Made by a program: the position numbers and the translations under genes | The notes under the pieces: model-generated | The model's database searches: none | Told to the model about the DNA's origin: nothing | The model's input: the letters and a program-made list of their open reading frames with translations, nothing else | Source: Acidimicrobiia bacterium | GTDB lineage: Bacteria > Actinomycetota > Acidimicrobiia > IMCC26256 > JANYLB01 | Direction of reading: 5' to 3' | Length of the DNA: 64,000 bases | NCBI GenBank assembly: GCA_035646535.1 | Contig: DASRPD010000098.1 | Location: 33,827 to 97,826, forward strand | Part shown: positions 30,997-62,057 of the stretch, one piece after another | Numbering within the stretch: position 1 is the stretch's first letter | Layout: every line of letters begins with the position of its first letter

Positions 30997-31111
30997 AACC
31001 AGCTCCTCGGCTCGGTCTCTGCTCCAAGTTCTCCCATTCTGACACGCGTGTCAGGTCGCGGGCGAGCGGAGACCTCGTGGGCCGCCGGCGCGCGTGGCGC
31101 ACGGCGACACG

Positions 31112-31963: not shown

Positions 31964-31981
31964 GTCGATATCGTCGCACGC

Positions 31982-39336: not shown

Positions 39337-40553
39337 AGGATCGCTCCCGACGTCTTGAGCTCGATGATCTCGTCCCACGAGTAGCCGAGCTCGAGCATCA
39401 GCTCGTCGGTGTGCTCACCGTGTTCCGGTGCGGCGGTCAGCTGGTGCGGCTGTTCGTCGAACTGCACGGGCGCGCCGACGAGGCTGAGATCGTTGCCTTG
39501 CGCGTCGGTGACCGGGCACAGGTAGCCGTTGGCGATCACCTGCTTGTCGTCATACAGCTCCGGCACCTTCTGTACCGGCGCCCAGACGCCTTCCATCGTC
39601 TCGAGCGCGTCGCGCCACTCGGCGAATGACTTGGACGCGAACGTGTCGGTGATCTCGGCTACGCAGGCCTTCCGATTGTCCGCCCGAACCTTCGCGTCAC
39701 GGTACCGCTCGTCGTCGATGAGATCGGTCCGGCCGAGATGGGTGCAGAAGTCGCTCCAGAACCGGTCGCTCTCCATCATGTTCAGGAAGATCCAGCGACC
39801 GTCGCCGGTGCGGTAGTTGCCGACGAGCGGGTTGGCCGCCGTGTTGTTGGCGAAGCGGGGAATGTCATCGAGTCCGAGCACGCCGCTCATCACGACGTCG
39901 GGTTGCAGTTGCCACATCGCGGTGTTCAGGAGTGACGTGTCGACCACCGCGGCGTGCCCGGTTCGCTCACGCTGGTAGAGCGCGGCGGAGATACCCGCGG
40001 CGATCGCGAGCCCTCCCATCACGTCGCCGATCGCGGGTCGCATCCCGGCCGGCAGGTCCGAATCCGCGGGGCGGAGCGTGTCGCCCATGCCGCCGCGCGC
40101 CCAGAATGACGCGCCGTCGTAGCCACCCTTGGTGGCGTCGGGACCCTTGGCGCCCTGGCCGTGACCGCGCACGTAGATGATGTTCGGATTGGCGGCCCGG
40201 ATGTGCTCGACGTCGATCTGCATGCGGGTCCGCGCGTCGGGCAGGAAGTTGGTGAGGAACACGTCCGCGGTCTTGGCCAGCCGGTAGATCAGCTCGCGCC
40301 CCTCGTCGGTGTGGAGGTCGATCCCGATGCTGCGCTTGCCTCGGTTGGGGAACTGGATCATGAAGTCGGCGCCATCGCCGGACGCGCCGGGCATCACGCC
40401 GAGCGTGGCCAGGCCCCGCTGGGGGTCGCCGGTCTCGGGATGCTCGACCTTCAGCACGTCCGCGCCCCAGTCGGCGAGGATCGCGCCGGCTGCGGGCACG
40501 AAGGTCCAGAAGGCGACCTCGAGCACGCGCGTCCCATGCAGAATGCTGGTCAT
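39333..40553 (-). CDS. family III CoA-transferase (CaiB/BaiF type)
   Basis: 406-aa ORF. GTRVLEVAFWTFVPAAGAILADWGADVLKVEHPETGDP is the typical N-terminus. NFLP and GHG are present. Confidence 0.9.
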   Translation of the reverse strand: MTSILHGTRVLEVAFWTFVPAAGAILADWGADVLKVEHPETGDPQRGLATLGVMPGASGDGADFMIQFPNRGKRSIGIDLHTDEGRELIYRLAKTADVFLTNFLPDARTRMQIDVEHIRAANPNIIYVRGHGQGAKGPDATKGGYDGASFWARGGMGDTLRPADSDLPAGMRPAIGDVMGGLAIAAGISAALYQRERTGHAAVVDTSLLNTAMWQLQPDVVMSGVLGLDDIPRFANNTAANPLVGNYRTGDGRWIFLNMMESDRFWSDFCTHLGRTDLIDDERYRDAKVRADNRKACVAEITDTFASKSFAEWRDALETMEGVWAPVQKVPELYDDKQVIANGYLCPVTDAQGNDLSLVGAPVQFDEQPHQLTAAPEHGEHTDELMLELGYSWDEIIELKTSGAIL

Positions 40554-43198: not shown

Positions 43199-44841
43199 CA
43201 GCAACCGTCGCCGACCTGCTCGCCCAGCGAGGTGACGACGAGTCACTCGGTCTCGTCGCCGGTGACGAGTGCTGGAGCTGGGCCGAGGTCGTGGGCGAGT
43301 CGAGACGGTATGCCGCGGCGCTGGCCGGGCTGCGCGGCGACGGTCCCTTCCATGTCGGCATCCTGGCCGAGAACACGCCCGAGTTCCTGTTCACCATGTT
43401 CGGCGCGGCGCTTGCCGGCGCGGTCACCGTCGGTGTCAACTCGACCCGTCGCGGCGCCGAGCTCGCGCGTGACATCACCCACACGGATTGTCGGATCATC
43501 GCCACCGAGGCCGGCCAGGTCGACCTGCTCACCGGGCTGGATCTCAACGACGCCGAGATCGTGAGCATCGACGCACCCCGCTGGGCCGAGCTGCTCGCGA
43601 GGGGCGAACACGCGGCGCAGCCGGCGGCCACCGTCGCGGCTGACGACCTGTTCGTCCTGCTGTTCACCTCCGGGTCGACCGGCGCGCCGAAGGCGGTACG
43701 GATGACCCACGGCCGCGCCACTCGCGCCGCGCTGGCCGCGACGTGGTTCACCGCTGACTCGGTGCTGTACTGCACGATGCCGCTGTTCCACGGCAACTCG
43801 CTCAACGCGATCGTGTTCCCCGCGCTGGCCACGGGCGCGACCATCGCACTGCGCCGCCGGTTCTCGGCGTCGGAGTTCCTCCCGGATTGCCGGCGCTACC
43901 ACGCCACGTTCTTCAGCACCGTGGGCCGCGCGCTCGCGTACGTGCTCGCGACACCCGAGCACCCCGACGATCGAGAGCACGAGGTGCAGTACGGCTTGTC
44001 ACCCGAGGCGTCTCCCACCGACATGGCGGCGTTCACTCGGCGCTTCGGGATACCGCTCGTCGCCGGGTACGGGTCGAGCGAGAACGCCATCGTCATGGTC
44101 CCCGCGCCGGGCCAACCGAAGGACGCGCTGGGCGTGCCCCAGGAAGGCATCGACGCCGCCATCATCGACCCCGACACCGGTGCCGAAGCCGCAACCGCGC
44201 GTCTCGACTCCGACGGCCGTCTGCTCAACCCGACCGAAGCCATTGGCGAGATCGTCGGTCGCAACGTCGCTGATCGCTTCGAGGGCTACTACAACAACCC
44301 TGAGGCCGACGCCGAGCGCATTCGCGACGGTATGTACCTCTCGGGTGACCTCGGGTATCGGGACGGGCGGGGGTTGTTCTTCTTCGCCGGCCGGCGAGGG
44401 GAGTGGCTCCGCGTCGACGGCGAGAACTTCACGGCCGGTCTCGTCGAGCGTGTGCTCGGCCGCTTCCCGGGGGTGAGCGCGGTGGCGGTCTATGCCGTGC
44501 CCGACGAGCGCACCGCCGATGACCAGCCGATGGCAGCCGTCGAGCTCGTTGCCGACGCCGAGTTCGATGCCGAGGCCTTCACTCGGTTCTGTGCCGACGA
44601 GCCCGACCTCGGCACGAAGTGGGCTCCCCGTTACGTGCGGATCGGGCGCCTGCCCGTCGGTGGTACGAACAAGGTCGACCGGCGCGCGTTGCGCAGCGAG
44701 CGCTGGGAGAGCGCGGCTCCGGTGTGGTGGCGCCCGGATCGAACCTCGCCGTACCGACTCATGACCGACGATGATCGACGCGCGCTCGACGAGCAGTTCG
44801 AGGCCCACGGTCGCGCCGGCGCGCTCCGCCGGCCCGGATAG
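43195..44841 (+). CDS. AMP-dependent acyl-CoA synthetase
   Basis: 548-aa ORF with an ATGA overlap (43195-43198). Motifs are LLFTSGSTGAPKAVRMTH, AGYGSSENA and YLSGDLGYRDGRGLFFFAGRRGEWLRVDGENF. Confidence 0.9.
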   Translation: MTATVADLLAQRGDDESLGLVAGDECWSWAEVVGESRRYAAALAGLRGDGPFHVGILAENTPEFLFTMFGAALAGAVTVGVNSTRRGAELARDITHTDCRIIATEAGQVDLLTGLDLNDAEIVSIDAPRWAELLARGEHAAQPAATVAADDLFVLLFTSGSTGAPKAVRMTHGRATRAALAATWFTADSVLYCTMPLFHGNSLNAIVFPALATGATIALRRRFSASEFLPDCRRYHATFFSTVGRALAYVLATPEHPDDREHEVQYGLSPEASPTDMAAFTRRFGIPLVAGYGSSENAIVMVPAPGQPKDALGVPQEGIDAAIIDPDTGAEAATARLDSDGRLLNPTEAIGEIVGRNVADRFEGYYNNPEADAERIRDGMYLSGDLGYRDGRGLFFFAGRRGEWLRVDGENFTAGLVERVLGRFPGVSAVAVYAVPDERTADDQPMAAVELVADAEFDAEAFTRFCADEPDLGTKWAPRYVRIGRLPVGGTNKVDRRALRSERWESAAPVWWRPDRTSPYRLMTDDDRRALDEQFEAHGRAGALRRPG

Positions 44842-44851
44842 GAGGCGACTC

Positions 44852-46051
44852 ATGACGATCCCGCTCACGGAGCTGGACATCGATCCGAGCGTGCCCGGAT
44901 TCTTCCTCCGGCCGGACTACTACGACGTGCTGGGCCGCCTGCGTGCCGAGGCTCCACTGTTCGAGGCCACGCCCGGGACGCGCCTTGTGTCGCGCTACGA
45001 CGACATTCGCGAGATCAGCCGCGACCCCGGTCGGTTCTGTTCGAGTCGTGGCGTGCTCGTCAACGACCCGATGCGCGAAGGCCTCGCCATCGAGGGCTCG
45101 ATCCTGCACACCGATCCACCCCGCCACGGCGAGTACCGCCGCCTGCTCAATCGGGAGTTCACTCCACGAGCGGTCGGCGGGATGGAGCCGCGCATCCGGG
45201 CTCGGACCCGCGACCTGCTCGATGCCATCCCCCGGGGCGAGGAGGTCGATCTCGTCGATGTGCTCGCCGCGCCGCTTCCGGTCACGGTGATCGCCGATGT
45301 GCTCGGGGTCGCCGAGTCGGATCGGTCCGAGTTCCGGCGTTGGTCGGACGCGGCGATCGTCGCATCCGACGGGCGCGCGGATCTTCCCACCGAGGACGCG
45401 GTTGCGGTCGGCGAGCTCGTTTCGTTCCTCGGTGCGCTGGCGGAGGCGAAACGGGCCGATCCCGGTGACGACGTGGTGTCACTGCTCGTCGACCGCGAGA
45501 TCGGCGGCGCGCGACTCTCGCCCGGCGAGCTCATGACGTTCAACATGTCGCTCCTCGTGGCGGGCAACGAGACCACTCGCCACCTCATCTCGGGTGGGTT
45601 CCTCGCGCTGGCCGAACATCCGGACCAGCGGCGCCGCCTCGCGGCCGATCCGTCGTTGATGCCCGGAGCAGTCGAGGAGCTCCTGCGGTGGGTGACCCCC
45701 ATCCAGCAATTCGCCCGGACCGTCGTCGCCGACACGACCGTCGGCGGCGAGCAGGTGCGCGTGGGGGAGTACCTCGTGATGCTCTACGCCTCGGGCAATC
45801 GCGACGAAGCGGCCTTCGGGCCGACTGCCGCGGACTTCGACACCCTGCGACCGCTCAGCCCGCCGAACCTCGCGTTCGGTTTCGGTGAGCACCTGTGTCT
45901 CGGCGCGGCCCTGGCCCGGCTCGAGGCCCGCGTCGTGTTCGAAGAGGTGCTCGACCGGTTCGCCGACTTCGAGCTCGCCGGCCCCTCGACGTACCTGCCG
46001 TCGAGTCTCGTGCGTGGCCCCAGCTCGCTGCCGATCCGCTTCGCGCGCTAG
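44852..46051 (+). CDS. cytochrome P450
   Basis: Start at MTIPLTELDIDP (ATG 44852, GGAGG at 44841-44845). It has the I-helix AGNETT, EELLRW (ExxR) and the heme loop FGFGEHLCLGAALARLE. Confidence 0.9.
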   Translation: MTIPLTELDIDPSVPGFFLRPDYYDVLGRLRAEAPLFEATPGTRLVSRYDDIREISRDPGRFCSSRGVLVNDPMREGLAIEGSILHTDPPRHGEYRRLLNREFTPRAVGGMEPRIRARTRDLLDAIPRGEEVDLVDVLAAPLPVTVIADVLGVAESDRSEFRRWSDAAIVASDGRADLPTEDAVAVGELVSFLGALAEAKRADPGDDVVSLLVDREIGGARLSPGELMTFNMSLLVAGNETTRHLISGGFLALAEHPDQRRRLAADPSLMPGAVEELLRWVTPIQQFARTVVADTTVGGEQVRVGEYLVMLYASGNRDEAAFGPTAADFDTLRPLSPPNLAFGFGEHLCLGAALARLEARVVFEEVLDRFADFELAGPSTYLPSSLVRGPSSLPIRFAR

Positions 46052-48543: not shown

Positions 48544-49380
48544 GTGACTGTGGCTGACTTCGAGACGATCGTGTACGACGAGCGCGACGGCGTGGCGTGG
48601 GTGACGCTCAACCGCCCCGAGGTCCACAACGCGTTCAACCTCACGATGCAGGAAGAGCTGCGAGGCGTGTGGACGTCGCTGCGCCGCAACGACGACGTCC
48701 GCGCCGTCGTCCTGACCGGCGCGGGGGAGAAAGCCTTCTGCACGGGCATCGACCGCGCCGAGGCAATGGCCCACTTCACCGAAGGTCCCGATGTCGACAG
48801 TCGCTCGGGCGTCGGCAGCGGCTCGACGCCGTACATGTTCGACGACCCGGGCCGGAACATCTGCCCGAAGCAATGTGACCTCTGGAAGCCCGTCGTCGCG
48901 GCGGTCAACGGCATGGCGTGCGGCGGCGCGCTCTACATGCTCGGCGAGGTCGACATCATCATCGCCGCGGACACCGCCACGTTCTTCGACCCGCACGTCA
49001 CCTACGGCATGGTGTCGGGCTTCGAGTCGATCCACCTCCTCCAGAAGCTCCCGCTGGGTGAGACGCTGCGCCTCGCGCTCTTGGGCAACAGCGAGCGGAT
49101 GTCGGCCCAGCGGGCTTACGAGATGGGGCTCGTCTCCGAGCTCGCGCCGCTCGCCGAGCTGCCCGCGCGCGCCGCGTGGATCGCGGGTGAGATCGCGTCT
49201 GCGCCCCCGCTCGCGGTCCAGGGGACGCTGCGTTCGATCTGGGCCGGCCAGGAGCACACCTGGAAGCAGGCGCTCGAGCTCGCGTACACCTGGGTCGGAC
49301 TCGGCTCGGACCATGACAACCTCGCCGCGGGCCAGACCAGCTTCGCCGGCGGTCAGCGCAAGGAGTGGCGCCTCCGCTGA
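48544..49380 (+). CDS. enoyl-CoA hydratase/isomerase family protein
   Basis: 278-aa ORF with DGVAWVTLNRPEVHNAF, VVLTGAGEKAFCTGID and KPVVAAVNGMACGGALYM. It carries an unusual inserted loop (..GPDVDSRSGVGSGSTPYMFDDPGRNICPKQ..). Confidence 0.85.
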   Translation: MTVADFETIVYDERDGVAWVTLNRPEVHNAFNLTMQEELRGVWTSLRRNDDVRAVVLTGAGEKAFCTGIDRAEAMAHFTEGPDVDSRSGVGSGSTPYMFDDPGRNICPKQCDLWKPVVAAVNGMACGGALYMLGEVDIIIAADTATFFDPHVTYGMVSGFESIHLLQKLPLGETLRLALLGNSERMSAQRAYEMGLVSELAPLAELPARAAWIAGEIASAPPLAVQGTLRSIWAGQEHTWKQALELAYTWVGLGSDHDNLAAGQTSFAGGQRKEWRLR

Positions 49381-50527: not shown

Positions 50528-51349
50528 GTGTACGACACGCTCGCCATCGAGCGCCACGGTCCGGTCGGCTGGCTGGTCTTCGACCGCCCCGACCGGGCCA
50601 ACGCGATGGACGCGCGCATGCTGGCCGAGCTCGAGCCGGCATGGCGTGAGCTGAACGCCGACCCGGATGTGCGGGTCATCGTCAACACGGGTGCCGGCGC
50701 CGCGTTCCAGACCGGTCTCGACGTCGGCCAGCTCAGTCGTGACCCTGATGCATTGCGGGAACAGTCCCGGCGGACCCGGCGGGCCGAGCTGGCGCTGACG
50801 GCGTGGCACAACGGAGTCGACAAGCCGGTCATCGCGGCGGTGAACGGCGTCTGCGCCGGTGGTGGGCTCCACTTCGTTGCCGACGCCGACATCGTCATCG
50901 CGTCGTCGTCGGCGACGTTCTTGGATCCTCACGTGTCCGTCGGTCAGGTCAGCGCGTTCGAGACGATCGGGCTGGCCCGCAAGATGCCGGCAGAGGCGGT
51001 CATGCGGATGGCGCTGGTGGGCCGCCACGAACGGATCAGCGCGGCGCGTGCACACCAGCTCGGCATGGTCAGCGAGGTCGTGGATCCTCCCGAGGCACTT
51101 CGCGAGACGGCGCAGCGGCTCGGTGAGCTGATCGCCCAGAACTCTCCGGCCGCGCTCGCGGCGACGAAGCGGGCCCTGTGGGGCGCGCTCGAGGAGGGCC
51201 TCACCGACGCGTGTCGCACCGGCGCGCGCGAGCTCGCCTCCCTCTGGGGTCATCCGGATCGGCTGGAAGGGCCCGCCGCGTTCGCGGCGGGCCGGGCACC
51301 CGTCTGGCAGCCGCCGGCCGTCTCCGAGCGGGATCGGAGTGACCCATGA
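50528..51349 (+). CDS. enoyl-CoA hydratase/isomerase family protein
   Basis: 273-aa ORF (GTG start) with GPVGWLVFDRPDRANAM and KPVIAAVNGVCAGGGLHF. An ATGA overlap links it to the following P450. Confidence 0.85.
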   Translation: MYDTLAIERHGPVGWLVFDRPDRANAMDARMLAELEPAWRELNADPDVRVIVNTGAGAAFQTGLDVGQLSRDPDALREQSRRTRRAELALTAWHNGVDKPVIAAVNGVCAGGGLHFVADADIVIASSSATFLDPHVSVGQVSAFETIGLARKMPAEAVMRMALVGRHERISAARAHQLGMVSEVVDPPEALRETAQRLGELIAQNSPAALAATKRALWGALEEGLTDACRTGARELASLWGHPDRLEGPAAFAAGRAPVWQPPAVSERDRSDP

Positions 51350-52539
51350 TCGACCTCTACGACTCCGCGACCTACGAGCACGCGCCGCCGCACGCCGAGC
51401 TCGAGCGCCTTCGGCGGGAGGATCCGGTGCACTTCCAGCCCATGCCGGACGGCACCGGCTACTGGGCGGTGCTCCGCTACGCCGACCTGGTCAACGTGGC
51501 GCGCCACCCGAACCTCTACTCGGCCGAGCTCGGTGGCGTCGTGCTCGAGGACCTCCCCCCGGAATCACTCGCCATGATGCGCGACATGTTGCTCGCGATG
51601 GACCCACCGCGACACCTCGACCACCGCCGCAACATCGCCCCGCGGTTCACGCCGGCGGTCATCGGTCAGCTCGAGGGGCGGATCCGGACGATCTGCCGCT
51701 CGATCCTCTCCGGGATTGTCGACGGATCCGAAGTCGACTTCGTCCACGACGTGTGCGCGCACGTTCCTTCACAGGTCGTGGGCGAGCTCGTCGGGATCCC
51801 GCGCGAGGACTGGCCTCGTATCCACGCGTGGTCGGAGCGCAACTCCGGCGGCCAGGATCCCGAGATCGCGGCCGCCGACGCCGACGCGGCAATGTCGGCC
51901 ACCGTCGAGATGGCGATGTACGCGATCGAGCTCGCCGGTCGGCGTCGTGCCGAGCCGGCCGATGACCTCATCACCCATCTCCTGGGTTGCGAGGTCGACG
52001 GTCACACGATGACCGATGTCGAGCTCGGCAGCTTCTTCGTGCAGCTCGTCACCGCCGGCAACGACACCACCCGCACGATGCTTTCCTCCGGTCTGGCCGC
52101 GCTGTTGGAACACCCTGATCAGCTCGCCATCGTGCGGGGTGATCGGGCTTCGATTCCCGGGGCGGTCGAAGAGATCCTGCGGTGGGCCAACCCGCTGCAC
52201 TATTTCCGTCGCACCACGACCGCGGCGACCGAGCTCGCGGGCCGATCTATCGCCGCGGGCGACAAGGTGGCGATGATGTACACGTCCGCGAATCGCGACG
52301 ACGCGGTGTTCTCCGATCCTCACCGTTTCGACGTGCGACGCGATCCCAACCCGCACCTGTCGTTCGGTACCGGCGAGCACTTCTGCCTCGGCGTGCACCT
52401 CGCTCGGCTGGAGGGGCGCGTGTTCTTCGAGGAGCTGTTCGACGAGTTCCGCGCGATCGAGCTCGTGGGGACACCCCGCCGACAGCGTTCCAACCTCAAC
52501 AACGCCCTCAAGGTGCTGCCGGTACGCCTGAGTCGCTGA
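51346..52539 (+). CDS. cytochrome P450
   Basis: 397-aa ORF with AGNDTT, EEILRW and FGTGEHFCLGVHLARLE. Confidence 0.9.
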   Translation: MIDLYDSATYEHAPPHAELERLRREDPVHFQPMPDGTGYWAVLRYADLVNVARHPNLYSAELGGVVLEDLPPESLAMMRDMLLAMDPPRHLDHRRNIAPRFTPAVIGQLEGRIRTICRSILSGIVDGSEVDFVHDVCAHVPSQVVGELVGIPREDWPRIHAWSERNSGGQDPEIAAADADAAMSATVEMAMYAIELAGRRRAEPADDLITHLLGCEVDGHTMTDVELGSFFVQLVTAGNDTTRTMLSSGLAALLEHPDQLAIVRGDRASIPGAVEEILRWANPLHYFRRTTTAATELAGRSIAAGDKVAMMYTSANRDDAVFSDPHRFDVRRDPNPHLSFGTGEHFCLGVHLARLEGRVFFEELFDEFRAIELVGTPRRQRSNLNNALKVLPVRLSR

Positions 52540-52554: not shown

Positions 52555-53904
52555 CTAGGGGGCCGGCGTCGTCGTGGTCGTCGTGGTCGTCGAGGTGGTG
52601 GTCGTCGTGGACGTCGTCGTGGTGGTCGGCGCGGTCGTCGACGTGGTCGATGACGAGGTCGTGGTGGTGGGTTCCGGTCCCGAGCTCACCTTGAGGATCA
52701 CGACGCTGTTGCGCGGCACGTCCGCGTTTGGCATCGGGGACTGAGCGAAGACGAGGTTCAGCCCGAAATCCTCGTTCGACTCGAGCTGCACCGACGGGCT
52801 CAGCTTGGCGCTGGTGATCTCCGCGACTGCCTCGGCGCGGGTCAGGCCCACCACGGGTGGGACGCTCACTCGGTTGGCGTCGCTCGCGTTGGTGTCACGA
52901 AACGCCCACCAGACGAGCCCACCGAGGACCAAGCCGAGCACGACGATCGCGGCAACGAGCCACGGCATCCGGCTCTTGCGGGTCGGCTCCGGGGTCGGTG
53001 TCTTGGCCGTCGGCAGCACGGTCGTCGGTGCCGCGGAGACCGGCGCAATGGCCGCCACGGTTGCGGGCTCGCTCAGGGGAACGTGCATCGTCGCCGAGAC
53101 GCGCCGCAGATCATTCGAGACCTCTCGCGCGCTGGCGTAGCGGCGCGTCGGATCTGTTTCGAGCAGTCGTTCGACGAGCGCGTCCAACGCGGGCGGGACT
53201 CCGGCCACCTTCGTCGAGGGTGCGGGTGGCTTGCCCGCGAGCTTCTGCTCGGTGAGCGCGACCGGGTCCGTGGCTGTGAACGGGGCGGCGCCGGTGATCG
53301 CCTCGTAGAGGACGATGCCGAGCGAGTAGAGGTCGCTGCGAGCATCGGCCGGTCGACCCTGGAGCTGTTCGGGAGCGGCGTAGCGGGCGGCGACGTCCGG
53401 CGCGATCTCGTAGCCGGCGAGTCCTGCGGTGGCGGTCCCGAAGTCCATGACCTTGACGCCGGCCTCCTCGGTGAGCAGGACGTCGGCGGGGCTCAACGAA
53501 CCGTGGACGGTTCCCGCTCGGTGCGCGGCGTCCAACCCGTCGGCGATGCCCATGCCGACCTCGGCCGACCGCCCGGGCGACAAGCGCGTCGACGTGGCGA
53601 GCGTGCTCGCGAGGTCAGAGCCGGGAACGTATTCCATGATGACGTACAGCGTTCCTGCGTCATCTCCCCAGTCGAACACCGTGACGACGTGAGGGTCCCG
53701 AACGGTTGCCGCCGCGGTGACCGCTTCTCGGAGCCGGGGGGCCACGGCGGGGTTGGCGGCGAGGCTCGGGGCGAGGACCTTGGCCGCCACCGTTCGGTCG
53801 AGCTCGCGGTCGTGGGCCAGGTACACCGCTGCGGTCGATGACTGCGAGAGAAGCTGTCGGAGCTCGTAGCGGCCGCCGAGCGCACCCGGGGGTGCCTGGG
53901 TCAT
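52555..53904 (-). CDS. transmembrane Ser/Thr protein kinase with one PASTA domain and a Thr/Ser-rich C-terminal tail
   Basis: The kinase core has GRYELRQLL..AAVYLAHD, HGSLSPADVLL and DFG. There is one TM segment (PWLVAAIVVLGLVLGGLVWW) and one PASTA domain (VPPVVGLTRAEAVAEITSAKL...VVILKVSSG). I prefer the start at ATG 53904 (MTQAPPGALGG). An in-frame GTG at 53928 is the alternative. Confidence 0.85.
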   Translation of the reverse strand: MTQAPPGALGGRYELRQLLSQSSTAAVYLAHDRELDRTVAAKVLAPSLAANPAVAPRLREAVTAAATVRDPHVVTVFDWGDDAGTLYVIMEYVPGSDLASTLATSTRLSPGRSAEVGMGIADGLDAAHRAGTVHGSLSPADVLLTEEAGVKVMDFGTATAGLAGYEIAPDVAARYAAPEQLQGRPADARSDLYSLGIVLYEAITGAAPFTATDPVALTEQKLAGKPPAPSTKVAGVPPALDALVERLLETDPTRRYASAREVSNDLRRVSATMHVPLSEPATVAAIAPVSAAPTTVLPTAKTPTPEPTRKSRMPWLVAAIVVLGLVLGGLVWWAFRDTNASDANRVSVPPVVGLTRAEAVAEITSAKLSPSVQLESNEDFGLNLVFAQSPMPNADVPRNSVVILKVSSGPEPTTTTSSSTTSTTAPTTTTTSTTTTTSTTTTTTTTPAP

Positions 53905-53924
53905 CGGGGTGCCTGGGTCATCGG
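53891..53924. repeat. perfect 17-bp tandem duplication spanning the kinase start codon
   Basis: GGTGCCTGGGTCATCGG lies at 53891-53907 and 53908-53924. On the coding strand this is CCGATGACCCAGGCACC x2, which duplicates the ATG. Confidence 0.9.
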
Positions 53925-54036
53925 GCACTCGACGCTAGCCGCCGCCCACCGCGACCGCTCGGACCAGAAACCGCGCCATGCCACCTACGCCACAGCGACG
54001 GCTCACGGCCCGTCGGGCCGGTCGGGAAGCGCGCGG

Positions 54037-54875: not shown

Positions 54876-56360
54876 ATGGACGTCATGACCGCGGCCCCGG
54901 GCCGGCCCCGGGCCGGGCTCGGGCCGGCCGATTGGCGAAACCTAGACTCCGCGGCCGTGCGAGGAATCGTGAGCGCGGCCGGGTACATCCCCTTCCGCCG
55001 CCTGGCCCGGGCCGACATCCGGGCAACGTTCGGTGCGGGCGGCGGTGCCGGCACCCGCTCGGTCGCGTCCTACGACCAGGACACGACGACGCTTGGGGTC
55101 GAGGCCGCCCGGCTCGTCCGGCGAGGCGGTAGCGACGGGGGCGGGGTGCCGGCGGTCGACGCGCTCTGGTTTGCGACCGCGAACCCCGCGTATCTCGACA
55201 AGACCAACGCGGCGGCCATCCATGCCGCGCTGCGCCTCGACACGGCGACGCCGGCGTTCGACTTCGGCGGCGCGCTGCGCTCCGGCATCGGCGCACTCCG
55301 TGCGGCTCTCGACGGCCGGGGCGCGACGCTCGTGGTGAGCTCGGACATGCGGACCGGGCTGCCCACGAGTCCGGATGAGTCCGCCGGGGGTGACGGCGCC
55401 GCCGCGATCCTCGTCGGCGACGACTCCGACGGCCCGCTCCTGGCTGAGTACCTCGGGGCTGCGTCGGCGACCGAGGAGTTCATCGACCGGTGGCGCACGC
55501 CCGGCGCGCTCCGTTCGAAGGCGTGGGAAGAGCGCTTCGGCGAGACGAAGTACGGCCCGCTCGGCGAGCGGGCCTGGCGCGAGGCGCTGGCGGCCGCCGG
55601 CATCGAGGCCGGCGACGTCGAGTCTGTCGTGGCCACGGGACTTCACGCCCGCGCGACGCGCGCGTTGGCCCGCATGCTCGGGGTCGACGCGACACGAGTC
55701 GTGGATGACCTCGCGACGACCGTCGGCAACACCGGCACCGCCCACGCGGGACTGTTGTTGGCGAGTGCGCTCGAGTTGGCGACGCCGGGACAAGTGATCG
55801 CGCTCGTCGGTCTCGCCGATGGGGTCGACGTGCTCATCTTCCGCGCGACCGATGCAGTCGTCCGACGGGTTCCGGCTCGGTCGGTGCAGTCCCAGATCGA
55901 CGAGGGCGCACCGGTCGCGTACGGCACGTTCCTCTCGTGGCGTCAGATGGTGGAGCTCGAACCGCCGCGGCGCCCCGAGCCGGCGCGGGTGTCGGCCGCG
56001 GCCGCCGGCCGATCGGAGGATTGGAAGTTCGGGTTCGTCGGTTCGCTCGACGAACACGGCACGCCACAGCTGCCGCCGGTGCCGGGCGCGAGGCGCGTAC
56101 CGATGGCGGACGCGCCGGCCACGATCGTCACGTTCACGGTTGATCGCCTCGCGTACTCGCCGAGTCCACCGATCGTGTTCGCCGTCGTCGATTTCGACGG
56201 TGGTGGACGGTTTCCGGTCGAGCTCACCGACGTCGACGCCGAGAAGGTCGCGATCGGTGACCGGGTCGAGATGACATTCCGGCGTCTGTCCACCGCGGAT
56301 GGCATCCACAACTACTTCTGGAAGGCGCGCCCGATCCCGGGTGCGTCCGAAGGGGAATGA
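54876..56360 (+). CDS. HMG-CoA-synthase-like (thiolase-fold) domain fused to a DUF35 OB-fold domain; the protein contains no cysteine
   Basis: HMGCS-like blocks are GIVSAAGYIPFRRL, SYDQDTTTLGVEAA, LWFATANPAYLDKTNAA, GDGAAAILVG and VGNTGTAHAGLLLASAL. The C-terminal OB fold is ATIVTFTVDRLAYSPSPPIVFAVVDFDGGGRFPVELTDV..IGDRVEMTF. The true start may be GTG 54957 or 54969. Confidence 0.75.
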   Translation: MDVMTAAPGRPRAGLGPADWRNLDSAAVRGIVSAAGYIPFRRLARADIRATFGAGGGAGTRSVASYDQDTTTLGVEAARLVRRGGSDGGGVPAVDALWFATANPAYLDKTNAAAIHAALRLDTATPAFDFGGALRSGIGALRAALDGRGATLVVSSDMRTGLPTSPDESAGGDGAAAILVGDDSDGPLLAEYLGAASATEEFIDRWRTPGALRSKAWEERFGETKYGPLGERAWREALAAAGIEAGDVESVVATGLHARATRALARMLGVDATRVVDDLATTVGNTGTAHAGLLLASALELATPGQVIALVGLADGVDVLIFRATDAVVRRVPARSVQSQIDEGAPVAYGTFLSWRQMVELEPPRRPEPARVSAAAAGRSEDWKFGFVGSLDEHGTPQLPPVPGARRVPMADAPATIVTFTVDRLAYSPSPPIVFAVVDFDGGGRFPVELTDVDAEKVAIGDRVEMTFRRLSTADGIHNYFWKARPIPGASEGE

Positions 56361-56371
56361 GGAGCGCCGTC

Positions 56372-57562
56372 ATGGGTTCGCACGGCATCAAGGATCGGGT
56401 CGCGATCGTCGGGATGGGATGCACGCGCTTCGGGGAGCGATTCGATTGTGGCCTCGATGATCTGATCATCGAAGCCGCGACCCAGACCTACGAACACGCC
56501 GGGATCGACCGCGACGACGTCGACGCGTACTGGTTCGGCACGGCCCAGAGCGGGATGAGCGGCATCACGCTGGCGCGGCCGCTGGGGCTCCAGGACAAGC
56601 CGGTGACCCGGGTCGAGAACTTCTGCGCGACCGGTTCGGAGGCGCTGCGCCAGGCCGCCTACGCCGTGGCCTCGGGCGCGTACGACGTGGCGATGGCCGT
56701 GGGCGCGGAGAAGGTCAAGGACAGCGGCTACGCGGGCCTGAACGCGTTTCCGGTCCCGTCCGACGGCACGGGTCGGACGCTCACCGCGGCCGCGATGTTC
56801 AGCATGGTCGCGCCCGCCTACGGCGAGAGGTACGGCGTGGACGAGGCGGCGATGCGCGAGGTCCTCGCGCGGATCGCGTGGAAGAACCACTACAACGGAG
56901 CGCGGAATCCGCTCGCGCAGTTCCGCAAGGAGCTGACGACCGAGCGGATTGCGGGCTCACCACCGGTGGCCGGTTTGCTGGGAGTGCTCGACTGCGCGGG
57001 TGTTGCCGACGGTGCGGCGGCGGCCATCGTGGTGCGAGCCGAGGACGCCCGGCGATACACCGATCGTCCGGTGTTCGTGAAGGCGCTCTCGTTCGTCGCC
57101 GGAAACGGCTCGGGTCTCGGCGACCCCGACTACGACTACACGCACTTCCCGGAGGTGGCTGTCAGCGCGCGCGACGCGTACGCACAGGCCGGCATCACCG
57201 ACCCGCGCGCCGAGCTCGCGATGGCCGAGGTCCACGATTGCTTCACGCCGACCGAGCTGGTCCTGATGGAAGACCTCGGTTTCTCGGCGCGCGGGAAGGC
57301 GTGGGAGGACGTGCTCGCCGGCGTGTTCGATCTCGACGGTGCCCTGCCGGTGAACCCGGACGGCGGGTTGAAGAGCTTCGGTCACCCCGTCGGTGCCTCC
57401 GGATTGCGCATGTTCTACGAATGCTGGCTCCAGCTGCGGGGAGAGGCACCGCCCGAGCGCCGGATCGTCGGCGAGCGGAGTCTCGCGTTGACGCACAACC
57501 TGGGTGGCTACCCGGGGGAGATGGTCAGCTTCGTGGGGATCGTGGGGAACCAGCCGGGCTAG
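56372..57562 (+). CDS. SCP-x / nonspecific lipid-transfer-type thiolase
   Basis: [22 protein letters not shown] is preceded by GAGGAG at 56360-65. The nucleophile context is [12 protein letters not shown], with HDCFT and GHPVGASG also present. An alternative ATG at 56357 forms an ATGA overlap with the upstream gene. Confidence 0.85.
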
Positions 57563-57568
57563 ATGCCG

Positions 57569-57761
57569 TTGGCAGGTGAGGGGCTGGTATTATGGATGGG
57601 TCTCGGCGAGCCGTCGGGTGAGTGGTCCCGCAACGGGCACGCCAGCTCTTCGCTTCTCAGTGAGATCTCGCGCCGCACATCGTGTGACGTGGGGAGTCGA
57701 GGCAATCTCAGAACGAAACGATTCAGCAACTGACGACTCAGCAACAGGGAGAGCAAAGAAA
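57569..57761 (+). promoter_or_regulatory. cspA promoter candidate and long (about 160 nt) lower-GC 5' UTR
   Basis: TTGGCA lies at 57569-57574 and TATTAT at 57588-57593; the 13-nt spacer is suboptimal. The UTR contains the direct repeat TCAGCAAC (57723-57730 and 57738-57745) and an AGGGAGAG SD. Confidence 0.4.
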
Positions 57762-57962
57762 ATGGCAACCGGATCAGTCAAGTGGTTCAACGCAGAAAAG
57801 GGCTACGGCTTCATTTCGCGTGAAGATGGTGACGACGTGTTCGTCCACTTCTCGGCCATCCAGGGGACGGGCTACCGCTCGCTGGACGAGGGTCAGAAGG
57901 TCGAGTTCGACGTCGCCCCAGGTCGCAAGGGCGAGGAAGCACAAAACGTCCGGATGGTCTGA
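57762..57962 (+). CDS. cspA: cold-shock protein (CspA family)
   Basis: [33 protein letters not shown] carries the RNP1 (KGYGFI) and RNP2 (VFVHF) motifs. 66 aa. Confidence 0.95.
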
Positions 57963-59877: not shown

Positions 59878-60825
59878 CTAAGGCCGGCGCGCGGGACCGA
59901 CGGGGATGTCCAATGGGTCGAGAACCAGGCCGCGTAGGACGAACACGTACGTCGCCATACCCACGACCAGGAGGCCGAAGATGGCCGACGCGGACGCGAA
60001 GTACGCGGTGTCGACGTCGATCGCGTCGAGCCGGTCGAAACGGATGGCGATGGCGACGACCGCGGTTCCCACGAACGCGACGCCGAGGGCGATCGCGCCG
60101 AGGATCGCGACCACCGGACTGATGAGTGCGCGGCGCGACGGCTCGTCGGGCATCACCGCCGTGTCACCGCCATGGCGCCGCACCAGCCACGCCGACGCGA
60201 GCGATACCCACATGATCACCAGGAGGTAGCTGCCGAGCACGTCACTCGGTCGATGCCAGCCGGTGATGAGGACACCTTCACCGATCGCGAGTGCGTAGGC
60301 GCCGCCCGCCACCGCGACGACCCCGCGAGCCCGCCGGGGCGCCACCATCACGGCCGCCAGGGCCAGCGACGCCGCCACCGCGGTATGCCCGCTCGGGAAT
60401 GATGCAACGTCGCTCGTGCCGTCCGGGGGTATCAGCAACGGGCGGGTGAGGATCACTCGCTTGAGCACCTCCGCGGTGACGTCGGAGACGCCGATGACCA
60501 GCGCGGCGGCGACCGCGAGGTGCCCGCGCCCTCGGGCGAACGCGATCAGGACGATCGCGCCGCCGACGAGAGCGATGGATCCGACGTTGATCGTAGCGAG
60601 CACGGTCTTGGTGGCGTCCTGGACACGCGGTCGGTCGACTCGCACCTGGCGCTCGAGCGTGGCGGCATCGAGTCGTTGTCCCCACGCGGTCCGGACGGCC
60701 ACCGTGTAGAGGGCCGCGAACACCACGAGCGCGACAACGGCCAGTGCGACGAGCTGGTGCGTGCGCCGGCGCGCCGCGACCGGCGTGTCAGAGGCGACTG
60801 ATGTGTCGTGCACCGCGGCCATCAT
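59878..60825 (-). CDS. PAP2-family membrane phosphatase
   Basis: Start at MMAAVHD (ATG 60825). The PAP2 motifs KRVILTRP, PSGH and HRPSD are present. There are multiple TMS. It lies 29 nt upstream of the MFS gene. Confidence 0.75.
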   Translation of the reverse strand: MMAAVHDTSVASDTPVAARRRTHQLVALAVVALVVFAALYTVAVRTAWGQRLDAATLERQVRVDRPRVQDATKTVLATINVGSIALVGGAIVLIAFARGRGHLAVAAALVIGVSDVTAEVLKRVILTRPLLIPPDGTSDVASFPSGHTAVAASLALAAVMVAPRRARGVVAVAGGAYALAIGEGVLITGWHRPSDVLGSYLLVIMWVSLASAWLVRRHGGDTAVMPDEPSRRALISPVVAILGAIALGVAFVGTAVVAIAIRFDRLDAIDVDTAYFASASAIFGLLVVGMATYVFVLRGLVLDPLDIPVGPARRP

Positions 60826-60863
60826 GTTGCGTCGGCGATCGCCATCGCTGGATACTGGCCGGC

Positions 60864-62057
60864 ATGGAGTTCGATCCGTTCTCGAGCGACTTCTTCGACG
60901 ACCCGTACGAGACCTATCGCTGGCTGCGTGATCATGCTCCGGTGTACCGCAACGAGCGGTACGGCTTCTGGGCACTGTCGCGCTACGACGACGTCGTTGC
61001 GGCCCACCGTGACTGGGAGACGTTCAGCAGCTCGCACGGGGTCACGATCGACCAGCTCATCGACGAGCGGCGTACGACGGTCGACGAGAGCATCATCTTC
61101 CTCGACCCCCCGGAGCACGAGCGGCTTCGGCGACTCGTGAGTCGTGTCTTCACGCCGAAGGCGATGGCCGATCTCGAGCCGCTCGTGCGCACTCTCGTCC
61201 GCGGTCATGCCGACGCGATCGGCGATGCCACGTCGTTCGATCTGGTGGCGGACTTGGCGGCGCCCTTTCCCGTGGAGGTGATCTCCACGATCCTCGGCGT
61301 GCCCGAACCGGACCGCCAGCAGATCCGGCACTGGGCCGACGAGATGCTGCGCCGCGAGCCCGACAACCCCCAGCCGACGCAGGCGGGCATGGAGGCCGGG
61401 CTCCACATGATTGCCTACCTCCTCGATCTCACCGCCGAGAAACGCGCCCATCCGACCGACGACATGCTCAGCCAGCTCATCCTTGCCGACGTTCCCGATG
61501 ACGACGGAGGCACCTACCGCCTCACCGACGGGGAGGTGGCGTCCTTCGGCACGCTGCTCGCCGCAGCGGGCAGCGAGACCGTGACCAAGCTGATCGGCAG
61601 CGGGGCCGTCCTCTTCGCGCAACACCCCGATCAGTGGGAGAAGGTGCTGGCCGATCCGGACGCGCTCGGCGGCGCGATCGAAGAGATACTGCGCTACTGG
61701 GCGCCGTCGCAGTACCAAGGTCGCTTCACCCATTCGGCGGTGACGCTGCACGGCGTGACGATCCCTGCGGATTCTCCGGTGCTGTTGATCACGGGCGCGG
61801 CGAACCACGACGAGCGGGCCTACGCGGACCCGGATCGATTCGACATCGACCGGCCGTTGCAACTGTCGTTGGGGTTCGGCCACGGCATCCATTCCTGTCT
61901 CGGCGCGGCGCTGGCGCGACTGGAGAGCCGGGTCGCGTTCGAGGAGATTCGACAACGGTGGCCCCGCTACACGATCGACGAGGCGGGCCTCCGCCGGGTG
62001 CAGATGGCCAACGTGGCCGGCTTCTGCAACGTGCCGGCTCGTTCCGGGCCGAGCTGA
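60864..62057 (+). CDS. cytochrome P450
   Basis: Start at MEFDPFSSDFFDDPYETYRWLRD (ATG 60864). It has AAGSETV, EEILRY and FGHGIHSCLGAALARLE. Confidence 0.9.
   Translation: MEFDPFSSDFFDDPYETYRWLRDHAPVYRNERYGFWALSRYDDVVAAHRDWETFSSSHGVTIDQLIDERRTTVDESIIFLDPPEHERLRRLVSRVFTPKAMADLEPLVRTLVRGHADAIGDATSFDLVADLAAPFPVEVISTILGVPEPDRQQIRHWADEMLRREPDNPQPTQAGMEAGLHMIAYLLDLTAEKRAHPTDDMLSQLILADVPDDDGGTYRLTDGEVASFGTLLAAAGSETVTKLIGSGAVLFAQHPDQWEKVLADPDALGGAIEEILRYWAPSQYQGRFTHSAVTLHGVTIPADSPVLLITGAANHDERAYADPDRFDIDRPLQLSLGFGHGIHSCLGAALARLESRVAFEEIRQRWPRYTIDEAGLRRVQMANVAGFCNVPARSGPS

What the first reader, a model, noticed from the sequence alone, without database searches (positions are those of the whole stretch)
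54876..57562. Cysteine-free HMG-CoA-synthase-like::DUF35 fusion coupled to an intact SCP-x-type thiolase
The 494-codon ORF aligns block by block with HMG-CoA synthase / KAS-III-like condensing enzymes and ends in a DUF35-type OB fold. The track translation contains no Cys codon at all. At the nucleophile position it reads AFDFGGALRSGIGAL instead of the ..AC.G.. context. The catalytic-Glu context DED reads SYDQD. The four-Cys zinc ribbon that normally precedes the DUF35 OB fold reads GSLDEHGTPQLPPVPGARRV. The next gene is coupled by ATGA at 56357-56360 or by a 12-nt gap. It is a thiolase that keeps its Cys/His residues ([20 protein letters not shown]). In archaea, thiolase, HMGCS and DUF35 form a channeling complex in which DUF35 is the scaffold. 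In actinobacterial steroid side-chain cleavage, a thiolase-like aldolase docks on a DUF35 domain. A condensing-enzyme fold that has lost every catalytic and metal-binding Cys yet remains full length suggests a pure scaffold or substrate-presenting subunit for the thiolase.
Basis: partly seen in the sequence, partly recalled or inferred. Interest (0 to 1): 0.65.

Follow-up and report, generated by a model that had tools for sequence, protein, structure and literature searches.

The report
Dead HMG-CoA-synthase/DUF35 scaffold plus thiolase
This is a conserved two-gene unit in which a condensing-enzyme look-alike that has lost its catalytic residues is fused to a DUF35 adaptor and sits next to an intact thiolase; this kind of unit was described in 2026, and the one unusual feature here is that the adaptor has also lost its zinc site.

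Summary
The feature is real. ORF 54876-56360 encodes an HMG-CoA-synthase-like domain fused to a DUF35 OB fold and has no Cys. An intact thiolase gene (56357-57562) follows, with the stop and start codons overlapping.

DED/DQD is not the catalytic-Glu motif. Aligned to the archaeal HMGCS tetrad E82/C114/H238/N270, the window reads A102/L134/T254/N285.

None of 230 full-length fused relatives has E, C or H at those three positions. The gene is not decaying: dN/dS is 0.19, at least 582 species genomes hold relatives, and the thiolase lies directly downstream in 79 of 80 loci.

The scaffold interpretation fits the evidence but is not new:
- PhlA and MucA are catalytically dead HMGS subunits of thiolase/DUF35 complexes.
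- Liao et al. (Nat Commun 2026) characterised a fused, tetrad-less HMGS-DUF35 with an intact ACAT from Pseudomonas fluorescens. It only performs thiolysis.
- They reported about 1,000 such loci.

What remains unusual is a deep, mostly Acidimicrobiia clade, including this window, that has lost all four zinc-ribbon cysteines and is largely Cys-free. Rhodococcus and other relatives keep the C4 ribbon.

The most likely function is a non-catalytic scaffold for a degradative thiolase in a beta-oxidation-like pathway. The substrate is unknown. Interest is modest.

The parts
54876..56360 (+). Longest ORF of the HMGS-like::DUF35 fusion (494 codons, 0 Cys). The probable true start is GTG 54957, giving 467 aa.
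   Evidence: Homologs begin at MRGI. A 100% identical protein, P0001 (491 aa), exists in public metagenomes.
54957..55946 (+). HMG-CoA-synthase / KAS-III-like thiolase-fold domain without catalytic residues. A102 (55179-81) replaces E82, L134 (55275-77) replaces C114, T254 (55635-37) replaces H238, and N285 (55728-30) keeps N270.
   Evidence: - NCBIfam archaeal HMGCS NF003274 scores 103.6 bits, below the 244 cut-off.
- PDB sequence hits: PhlA homolog 9skh_A at 2.6e-16, and 6esq_I at 5.7e-11.
- Tetrad mapping.
- The AF2 model has high pLDDT over residues 1-330.
- Foldseek top hit is 6esq_I with target-normalised TM-score 0.83, followed by PhlA and MucA.
55959..56030 (+). Conserved linker EPPRRPEPARVSAAAAGRSEDWKF between the two domains.
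   Evidence: It is nearly invariant in 81 close homologs. Some positions (R366, R379) are at least 85% conserved in relatives below 55% identity. AF2 pLDDT is below 50 in the monomer model. From this I infer that it becomes ordered only in the complex.
56031..56117 (+). Degenerate remnant of the DUF35 rubredoxin-like zinc ribbon (GFVGSLDEHGTPQLPPVPGARRVPMADAP), with no Cys or His ligand set.
   Evidence: - The four ribbon columns read D, H, gap, gap in the window, against CCCC in 89 of 230 relatives.
- PF12172 gives no match at E<=1.
- The model shows two short strands at moderate confidence.
56103..56336 (+). DUF35 OB-fold domain, ending in the family motif NYFWKARP.
   Evidence: Pfam PF01796 scores 45.6 bits against a 27.1 cut-off, over aa 410-469. 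6esq_E (DUF35) matches at 4e-3. The model predicts five strands.
56357..57562 (+). Thiolase of the SCP2 / archaeal-ACAT type. It is translationally coupled by an ATGA overlap; an alternative start is ATG 56372 behind GAGGAG. Catalytic motifs: C90 in NFCATGS (56618-38), H293-D-C295-F (57233-47), G-H343-P (57380-403).
   Evidence: -.
- NCBIfam NF004810 scores 592.6 bits against a 403 cut-off.
- 6esq_A matches at 1.9e-54.
- HDCF and GHP are invariant in 63 of 63 orthologs.
- The gene lies directly downstream of the fusion in 79 of 80 related loci.

Best explanation
The two genes encode the two chains of a thiolase complex. The first chain is a non-catalytic HMG-CoA-synthase-like domain joined through a conserved Pro/Arg-rich linker to a DUF35 OB-fold adaptor. 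Its role is to hold, solubilise and help shape the CoA/substrate cleft of the second chain. The second chain is an intact SCP2/archaeal-type thiolase that carries all the chemistry: Cys90 as nucleophile, plus the HDCF and GHP motifs.

By analogy with the fused Pseudomonas fluorescens complex, the enzyme cleaves a 3-oxoacyl-CoA by thiolysis rather than making HMG-CoA. It probably acts as the last step of a beta-oxidation-like catabolic route for an organic acid that has not been identified.

Shown here: domain architecture, loss of E/C/H, loss of the zinc ligands, intact thiolase motifs, purifying selection, and strict gene adjacency.

Inferred: complex formation, the thiolytic direction, and the pathway role.
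For: Architecture and homology:
- Domain architecture.
- The best solved relatives of each part are the three subunits of known thiolase/HMGS/DUF35 complexes: 6esq chains I, E and A, and 5m3k/9skh/9vbo chain A.

Catalytic residues:
- E82, C114 and H238 are replaced by A102, L134 and T254. In 230 full-length relatives none has E, C or H there, and the nucleophile column varies freely among L, V, A, I and M.
- Thiolase motifs N[FY]C, HDCF and GHP are invariant.

Selection and distribution:
- dN/dS is 0.19 for the fusion (0.18 for the dead domain) and 0.10 for the thiolase, measured against the closest relative.
- At least 582 species genomes hold relatives, and 572 clusters at 50% identity score E<=1e-30.
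- The thiolase lies immediately downstream in 79 of 80 loci.

Genomic context:
- Full-length homologs in cultured Rhodococcus, Mycobacterium, Sphingobium, Variovorax and Paraburkholderia sit in beta-oxidation-like operons.
- 30 of 66 Acidimicrobiia loci carry a divergent operon of two family-III CoA-transferases, two ACADs whose best matches are PimC and PimD, and a MaoC pair.

Literature:
- In the PhlA complex only PhlC residues take part in catalysis (PMC6392133).
- The fused PfACAT/HMGS-DUF35 lacks the tetrad, keeps Cys/HDxF/GHx, cleaves acetoacetyl-CoA and does not condense (PMC12960953).
Against: - No interaction, stoichiometry or activity was measured or modelled here.
- The sequence of the characterised Pseudomonas protein was not available, so direct orthology is untested.
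- In this window the pair is not embedded in a beta-oxidation operon. Its upstream neighbours are a membrane protein and a Ser/Thr kinase, so the pathway assignment rests on relatives.
- N285, the fourth tetrad residue, and many charged residues of the dead domain are conserved. This could reflect a ligand-binding role rather than pure scaffolding.
- The DUF35 part of the monomer model has only moderate confidence.
Confidence: 0.75

Rival explanations
1. The HMGS-like domain is not inert. It keeps a pocket that binds CoA, an acyl group or an effector, and so presents substrate to, or regulates, the thiolase through a shared CoA site as in the archaeal complex.
For: - N285 is kept, as in 140 of 230 relatives.
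- R135 (the residue after the former nucleophile), D157, R159, E168, D173 and R207 are at least 85% conserved even in relatives below 55% identity.
- An interfacial chamber persists in PpATase and SmaATase despite loss of the catalytic residues (PMC12960953).
Against: No ligand data exist. The conservation could equally reflect folding or interface constraints. The nucleophile column itself is variable.
Confidence: 0.15
2. The pair is a Friedel-Crafts C-acyltransferase of the PhlACB/MucABC type that acetylates a small-molecule acceptor.
For: PhlA homologs are the best sequence matches among solved structures. The tetrad is lost, as in PhlA and MucA.
Against: The thiolase keeps HDCF, which PhlC and MucB have lost. 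It is much closer to archaeal ACAT (1.9e-54) than to PhlC (6.4e-26). No PKS or NRPS lies nearby. DUF35 is fused here rather than a separate subunit.
Confidence: 0.05
3. The first gene is a working HMG-CoA synthase (mevalonate pathway) that uses an unconventional nucleophile.
For: JGI and NCBI automatic names say 'hydroxymethylglutaryl-CoA synthase'. The best NCBIfam model is archaeal HMGCS.
Against: - The score of 103.6 bits is far below the 244 cut-off.
- E, C and H are all absent, in every relative.
- The E82C/C114G/H238Q/N270D mutant of the archaeal enzyme is inactive, and the fused Pf complex makes no HMG-CoA.
Confidence: 0.02
4. The thiolase-like protein is an Ltp2/Sal-type retro-aldolase docked on DUF35, as in steroid side-chain cleavage.
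For: The DUF35 partnership fits, P450s and enoyl-CoA hydratases lie in the window, and Ltp2 6ok1_A is a detectable relative at 3.8e-24.
Against: The Cys90 nucleophile and the HDCF and GHP motifs are invariant. Archaeal ACAT and SCP2 thiolases are far better matches. No MaoC hydratase is fused to the DUF35 here.
Confidence: 0.02
5. The first ORF is a decaying pseudogene or a chance ORF in GC-rich DNA.
For: Loss of all catalytic and metal-binding residues.
Against: The 81 close homologs have 72% mean column identity. dN/dS is 0.19. GC3 is 0.87, typical of the window's genes. Thousands of full-length relatives exist.
Confidence: 0.01

Closest known systems
PfACAT/HMGS-DUF35 complex of Pseudomonas fluorescens (Liao et al., Nat Commun 2026, PMC12960953)
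   Same: HMGS-like and DUF35 are fused in one chain, and E, C and H of the E-C-H-N tetrad are lost. The adjacent ACAT keeps the catalytic Cys, HDxF and GHx. No PKS or NRPS lies nearby. It belongs to the 'minimal' class that made up 1,001 of their 1,030 loci.
   Different: - Gene order here is fusion then thiolase.
- N of the tetrad is retained here.
- All four zinc-ribbon Cys are absent. Whether the Pf protein has them is unknown to me.
- The window comes from a mostly Acidimicrobiia lineage.
- Direct sequence comparison was not possible.
PhlACB (PpATase, 5M3K/5MG5), CsATase (9SKH) and MucABC (SmaATase, 9VBO) Friedel-Crafts acyltransferases
   Same: A catalytically dead HMGS-like subunit (PhlA: Cys to Gly115, Glu to Cys83), a DUF35 and a Cys-dependent thiolase-fold subunit. 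These are the best or near-best sequence and fold matches of the window's first domain.
   Different: They have three separate chains. Their thiolase subunit has lost HDxF and transfers acyl groups to small aromatic or tetramic acceptors. They are linked to PKS/NRPS clusters. Solved DUF35 domains, including PhlB, are reported to coordinate zinc with four Cys.
[quoted passage not shown]
   Same: All three modules are homologous. The thiolase is the closest solved relative (1.9e-54), and the HMGS fold is the top Foldseek hit.
   Different: The archaeal HMGS is active (E82/C114/H238/N270) and channels acetoacetyl-CoA into HMG-CoA. Its DUF35 is a separate zinc-binding chain.
BbsAB benzoylsuccinyl-CoA thiolase (7PXP)
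   Same: A degradative SCP2-type thiolase with HDxF that needs a DUF35 partner. It sits within a pathway of family-III CoA-transferase, ACAD, hydratase and thiolase, resembling the operon next to many orthologs.
   Different: It has no HMGS-like module. BbsA is a stand-alone zinc-ribbon DUF35. BbsB matches the window thiolase only at 3.9e-36.
Ltp2-ChsH2(DUF35) and Sal-Shy(DUF35) steroid side-chain aldolases
   Same: A thiolase-fold enzyme docks on a DUF35 domain that is fused to another, larger protein. The DUF35 zinc finger shapes the substrate cleft.
   Different: Those enzymes are retro-aldolases without the Cys nucleophile. Their DUF35 is fused to a MaoC hydratase and binds zinc (C4 or C3H1).

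Membership tests
Fused HMGS-DUF35 / ACAT 'minimal' bacterial thiolase complex (Liao et al. 2026) | HMGS-like domain and DUF35 in one polypeptide | tested here: met
   Pfam ACP_syn_III_C (aa 238-317) and OB_ChsH2_C (aa 410-469) lie in one ORF. Full-length fused relatives range down to 32% identity.
Fused HMGS-DUF35 / ACAT 'minimal' bacterial thiolase complex (Liao et al. 2026) | [quoted passage not shown] | tested here: met
   The window reads A102, L134 and T254, with N285 retained. None of 230 relatives has E, C or H, and N is kept in 140 of 230. Three of the four residues are lost.
Fused HMGS-DUF35 / ACAT 'minimal' bacterial thiolase complex (Liao et al. 2026) | Adjacent ACAT retains the catalytic Cys, HDxF and GHx | tested here: met
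   C90, H293-D-C-F and G-H343-P are present. HDCF and GHP are invariant in 63 of 63 orthologs, and the Cys of N[FY]C is kept in all the motif variants listed.
Fused HMGS-DUF35 / ACAT 'minimal' bacterial thiolase complex (Liao et al. 2026) | No neighbouring PKS/NRPS machinery | tested here: met
   Pfam scans of the predicted genes from about 29.8 to 62 kb of the window found none.
Fused HMGS-DUF35 / ACAT 'minimal' bacterial thiolase complex (Liao et al. 2026) | Forms a complex that cleaves acetoacetyl-CoA but does not condense acetyl-CoA | not testable with these tools
   This needs biochemistry.
Fused HMGS-DUF35 / ACAT 'minimal' bacterial thiolase complex (Liao et al. 2026) | Sequence homology to the characterised P. 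fluorescens proteins | not tested
   No accession or sequence is given in the text that is held, and no supplement is held. Proteobacterial full-length relatives at 31-36% identity do exist.
HMG-CoA synthase (functional) | Glu/Cys/His catalytic residues and a score above the family cut-off | tested here: not met
   NF003274 scores 103.6 against 244, and TIGR00748 scores 59.8 against 353. The catalytic residues are absent.
DUF35 (zinc ribbon + OB fold) | C-terminal OB fold (PF01796) | tested here: met
   45.6 bits against a 27.1 cut-off, and 49 bits on the C-terminal fragment alone.
DUF35 (zinc ribbon + OB fold) | Rubredoxin-like C4 zinc ribbon (PF12172) | tested here: not met
   No match at E<=1, whereas P0125, P0127 and P0164 match above the cut-off. 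The four Cys columns read D, H, gap, gap.
PhlACB/MucABC Friedel-Crafts acyltransferase | Thiolase subunit lacks HDxF and has an acceptor-binding pocket; PKS/NRPS context | tested here: not met
   HDCF is retained. PhlC is a weaker match than ACAT. No PKS or NRPS is present.
Ltp2/Sal retro-aldolase-DUF35 | Thiolase fold without a Cys nucleophile | tested here: not met
   C90 is present in the window, and the Cys of the N[FY]C motif is kept in all the ortholog variants listed.
SCP2-type / archaeal-type thiolase | Cys nucleophile, HDCF and GHP fingerprints, thiolase N and C domains | tested here: met
   Pfam Thiolase_N and Thiolase_C_1. NF004810 scores 592.6 against 403. 6esq_A matches at 1.9e-54 and the SCP2-thiolase 6hsj at 3.1e-42.

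The most novel reading that the evidence does not exclude
The Acidimicrobiia-dominated clade to which this window belongs may be a distinct, metal-free subclass of DUF35 adaptors. In solved DUF35 complexes the zinc ribbon shapes the partner's substrate cleft. Here it would be replaced by a Cys-free loop, re-tuning the thiolase toward a particular substrate: for example a dicarboxylic or branched acyl-CoA supplied by the co-located CoA-transferases, PimCD-like ACADs and MaoC hydratase. The change might also make the complex independent of zinc and insensitive to thiol oxidation.
Probability: 0.2. Interest if true: 0.5.

Novelty: new variant of a known kind. Interest (0 to 1): 0.3.

Why it matters
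The pair shows that inactive HMGS-like scaffolds fused to DUF35 are not a curiosity of a few antibiotic clusters. They are a very large, strongly conserved family in environmental Actinomycetota and in cultured degraders such as Rhodococcus, Mycobacterium and Sphingobium, and automatic annotation still often calls them 'HMG-CoA synthase'. Annotating them correctly avoids false inference of a mevalonate pathway. The zinc-free clade offers a natural experiment on what the DUF35 zinc ribbon contributes to assembly and specificity. The conserved neighbouring operon of CoA-transferases, ACADs and MaoC hydratase gives a handle for finding the still unknown physiological substrate of this class.

Tried and rejected
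The predicted interface therefore remains untested.
- Foldseek against afdb50 was not available.
- The Voegeli 2018 paper is not held, and the supplement of Liao 2026 is not held. I could not obtain the archaeal CoA-site residues or the Pf sequences.
- The listing of cluster members on 10 distant representatives gave no Pseudomonas names. The only named organisms were Effusibacillus and a deltaproteobacterial MAG.
- Rfam found no riboswitch or leader upstream of the fusion. Its only hit was a sub-threshold cspA match downstream. The consensus scan found no promoter and no informative terminator.
- I considered and rejected a pseudogene, an active HMGCS, an Ltp2-type aldolase and a PhlACB-type acyltransferase.
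- The reading of 'Cys-free' as strongly non-random was tempered, because two other long proteins in the window are also Cys-free.
- My first Pfam query for the downstream cold-shock gene was off-frame. Its identity rests on the [12 protein letters not shown] sequence and on the CSD annotation of the syntenic gene in L081.
Full report
**What is in the sequence**

The window holds a 494-codon ORF at 54876-56360 (+) and a 401-codon ORF at 56357-57562 (+). Both have the high third-position GC (0.87 and 0.89) typical of real genes in this roughly 70% GC DNA.

The first ORF contains no cysteine, and the second contains six. The stop of the first overlaps an ATG of the second (ATGA). A second in-frame ATG at 56372 is preceded by GAGGAG. 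Either way the genes are tightly coupled.

Homologs nearly all begin at MRGI(V/L/I)SAAGY, so the real start is probably GTG 54957, giving 467 aa.

**Domains**

Pfam finds a KAS-III/HMGS-type C-terminal thiolase-fold domain and the DUF35 OB fold in the first protein. It finds thiolase N- and C-domains in the second.

NCBIfam's best model for the first protein is archaeal HMG-CoA synthase, but at 103.6 bits against a cut-off of 244. The second protein passes the equivalog NF004810 'acetyl-CoA acetyltransferase' at 592.6 against 403.

Among solved structures, each part is closest to a subunit of a known three-part complex:
- The first domain is closest to PhlA homologs (9skh_A at 2.6e-16, 5m3k_A) and to the archaeal complex HMGCS 6esq_I.
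- The C-terminus weakly matches the DUF35 chain 6esq_E.
- The thiolase is closest to the archaeal complex thiolase 6esq_A (1.9e-54). Next come SCP2-type thiolases and BbsB. PhlC (6.4e-26) and Ltp2 (3.8e-24) are much weaker.

An AF2 model built from 81 homologs is confident for the thiolase-fold domain. It has pLDDT below 50 for the linker (model residues 335-359) and is moderate for the OB barrel. Foldseek ranks 6esq_I first (TM 0.83 normalised to the target), followed by PhlA, CsATase and MucA chains. All of these rank ahead of free-standing HMGCS and FabH.

**Active-site check**

I rebuilt residues 5-316 of 6esq_I and 42-347 of PhlA from the printed HMMER alignments. I then aligned them with the window protein and 230 full-length relatives.

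The published tetrad of the archaeal enzyme is E82/C114/H238/N270. PhlA's substitutes are C83/G115/Q/D (PMC6392133; PMC12960953). Both sets fall in the expected columns, which validates the alignment.

The window reads A102, L134, T254 and N285. Among the 230 relatives none has Glu, Cys or His at the first three columns. Asn is kept in 140.

The nucleophile column varies freely among L, V, A, I and M. A few distant members have a Cys two residues away, but never in the column itself.

The claim that the catalytic Glu is lost is therefore right, but for the wrong residue. The window's Q68 is merely a rare variant, seen in 15 of 230, of a conserved but non-catalytic Glu.

**Zinc ribbon**

In 89 of the 230 relatives the CxxC...CxxC ribbon is intact. 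These have a median of 8 Cys per protein, and all are at most 50% identical to the window. In 138 relatives all four Cys are missing. These have a median of 0 Cys, and 89 are entirely Cys-free.

Pfam's zf-ChsH2 model (PF12172) hits ribbon-bearing relatives above its cut-off. It does not hit the window protein, P0013 or P0121 even at E<=1.

In a neighbour-joining tree of 116 sequences dereplicated at 80% identity, 41 ribbon-less sequences form one pure clade containing the window. That clade extends down to 46% identity. Only four state changes are needed across the whole tree.

Homologs in Rhodococcus keep the C4 ribbon.

A 2025 structural paper states that zinc is bound by four Cys in all solved DUF35 homologs. 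It treats a C3H1 variant as unique, and shows that the zinc finger shapes the partner's substrate cleft (PMC12329534). A DUF35 with no metal ligands at all is therefore a variant I could not find described.

Being Cys-free is less striking on its own. About 5 Cys would be expected (binomial P about 0.006), but two other proteins of more than 450 aa in this window also lack Cys.

**Not a pseudogene**

The protein has thousands of relatives:
- more than 7,700 word-filtered hits, of which the best 120 are 64-80% identical and 455-505 aa long;
- 2,814 clusters at 50% identity with E<=1e-3, and 572 with E<=1e-30;
- at least 582 species-level genomes matching two family peptides, the best 80 almost all Acidimicrobiia or Actinomycetota MAGs.

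The 81 close homologs share 72% mean column identity.

Against the closest distinct relative (L081, 81% aa identity), dN/dS values are as follows:
- whole fusion: 0.19
- dead catalytic domain: 0.18
- linker: 0.27
- ribbon remnant plus OB fold: 0.19
- thiolase: 0.10

**Gene neighbourhood**

The thiolase lies directly downstream of the fusion in 79 of 80 related loci. The one exception is a contig that ends there. Its HDCF and GHP motifs are invariant in 63 of 63 orthologs, and the Cys of N[FY]C is kept in every motif variant listed.

Beyond the pair, context varies. In 30 of 66 loci with enough upstream sequence there is a divergent operon. It contains:
- two family-III CoA-transferases, whose best but sub-threshold matches are dicarboxylate CoA-transferases;
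- two acyl-CoA dehydrogenases, whose best but sub-threshold matches are the PimC and PimD subunits;
- a MaoC-type hydratase pair.

In 21 of 66 loci, and in this window, none of these is adjacent. Here the upstream genes on the opposite strand are a membrane protein and a PASTA Ser/Thr kinase. Downstream is a cold-shock gene, and this arrangement is shared with L081.

The wider window is nevertheless rich in acyl-CoA and oxygenase genes: three P450s, enoyl-CoA hydratases, two AMP-ligases, a family-III CoA-transferase and a 2OG oxygenase.

In cultured bacteria, full-length homologs at 31-50% identity occur on catabolic megaplasmids of Rhodococcus (DK17, PD630, qingshengii), Mycobacterium avium, Variovorax, Sphingobium, Azoarcus and Paraburkholderia. 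They are annotated 'OB-fold domain-containing protein' followed by 'acetyl-CoA acetyltransferase'. They sit inside operons with ACADs, crotonases, SDRs, CoA-transferases or CoA-ligases.

**What is already known**

For PhlACB, the structure paper concluded three things (PMC6392133):
- PhlA lacks the Cys and Glu needed for condensation.
- Only PhlC residues take part in catalysis.
- PhlA and PhlB are probably needed for proper assembly of the complex.

Liao et al. (Nat Commun, January 2026, PMC12960953) solved MucABC and mined bacterial genomes. They reported that:
- 1,001 of 1,030 loci with co-localised HMGS, ACAT and DUF35 lack secondary-metabolite genes.
- One such locus from P. fluorescens has a fused HMGS-DUF35 lacking the E-C-H-N tetrad and an ACAT keeping Cys, HDxF and GHx.
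- That complex makes neither HMG-CoA nor acetoacetyl-CoA, but cleaves acetoacetyl-CoA. An H294Y change in HDxF nearly abolished this activity.

They interpret the class as an evolutionary intermediate with no assigned pathway. Fusions of DUF35 to thiolase-superfamily domains were already noted in 2010 (PMC2954200). My remaining literature searches found no paper that assigns a physiological substrate to the fused class.

**Interpretation**

The best-supported model is that chain 1 is a non-catalytic scaffold. It consists of a dead HMGS fold, a conserved Pro/Arg-rich linker, a ribbon remnant and an OB fold. It assembles with, and completes the CoA/substrate cleft of, chain 2. Chain 2 is an intact SCP2/archaeal-type thiolase that works in the thiolytic direction, at the end of a beta-oxidation-like route.

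The architecture, residue losses, selection and adjacency are shown here. Complex formation, direction of the reaction and pathway role are inferred from homologous complexes and from the neighbourhoods of relatives.

I cannot separate a 'pure scaffold' from a 'CoA- or substrate-presenting' role. Conserved charged residues around the former active site and the retained Asn leave room for the latter.

The other readings are contradicted by tested features:
- an active HMGCS
- a PhlACB-type acyltransferase
- an Ltp2-type aldolase
- a pseudogene

**Novelty and score**

The family is huge and routinely annotated.

The aspect I could not find described is the deep, mainly Acidimicrobiia clade in which the DUF35 zinc ribbon has lost every ligand and the whole chain is typically Cys-free.

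I rate this a new variant of a known kind, with modest interest (0.3). The remaining open question, for the whole class, is the physiological substrate.

Noticed in passing
window 57605-57962 (+): A CspA-type cold-shock gene ([18 protein letters not shown]..., about 57759-57962) lies directly downstream of the thiolase. There is a sub-threshold Rfam cspA thermoregulator match at 57605-57925 (45.9 bits against a gathering score of 78, E 9e-10). The same thiolase-then-CSD order is seen in the closest relative, L081.
   Followed up: partly
window 52555-53928 (-): A Ser/Thr protein kinase with a PASTA domain ends in a long, almost pure Thr/Ser tail (...TTTTSSSTTSTTAPTTTTTSTTTTTSTTTTTTTTPAP). It is Cys-free, like the fusion protein.
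   Followed up: partly
window 29773-52539: A dense set of acyl-CoA and oxygenase genes:
- two P450s here (44771-46051 and 51346-52539), plus a third at 60744-62057;
- enoyl-CoA hydratases at 31094-32929 (a 611-aa protein with two matched ECH stretches), 48544-49380 and 50528-51349;
- two AMP-ligases;
- a family-III CoA-transferase at 39333-40553;
- a 2OG-Fe(II) oxygenase;
- several Amidohydro_2/3 proteins and a hydantoinase B.
This suggests a catabolic island, but the fusion/thiolase pair is not in an operon with it.
   Followed up: partly
window 16294-16922 (-) and 18926-19584 (-): Two apparent type II toxin-antitoxin pairs. The first is a PIN-domain toxin with a Phd/YefM-like antitoxin (below the Pfam cut-off). 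The second is a MazE/AbrB-type antitoxin with a 142-aa partner that has no Pfam match.
   Followed up: partly
L002 1471-7575 (-) and 29 other related loci: A conserved operon runs divergently from the fusion/thiolase pair. It holds two family-III CoA-transferases, two ACADs whose best (sub-threshold) matches are the pimeloyl-CoA dehydrogenase subunits PimC and PimD, and a MaoC plus FAS1-DH-like hydratase pair. It is present in 30 of 66 loci and absent from the window. It is a lead to the substrate of this thiolase class.
   Followed up: partly
window 55077-55079 (Q68): The conserved N-terminal DED motif reads DQD in the window and its closest relative P0002. Only 15 of 230 relatives have Gln here. 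The motif is not the catalytic Glu, and its role is unknown.
   Followed up: partly
L028 4262-8014 (-), also L027, L034 and L049: In the sponge and marine Acidimicrobiia loci, the pair is instead preceded by a molybdopterin aldehyde-oxidase/xanthine-dehydrogenase-family protein and an Amidohydro_2 protein. This is a different conserved context from that of the soil and freshwater relatives.
   Followed up: no
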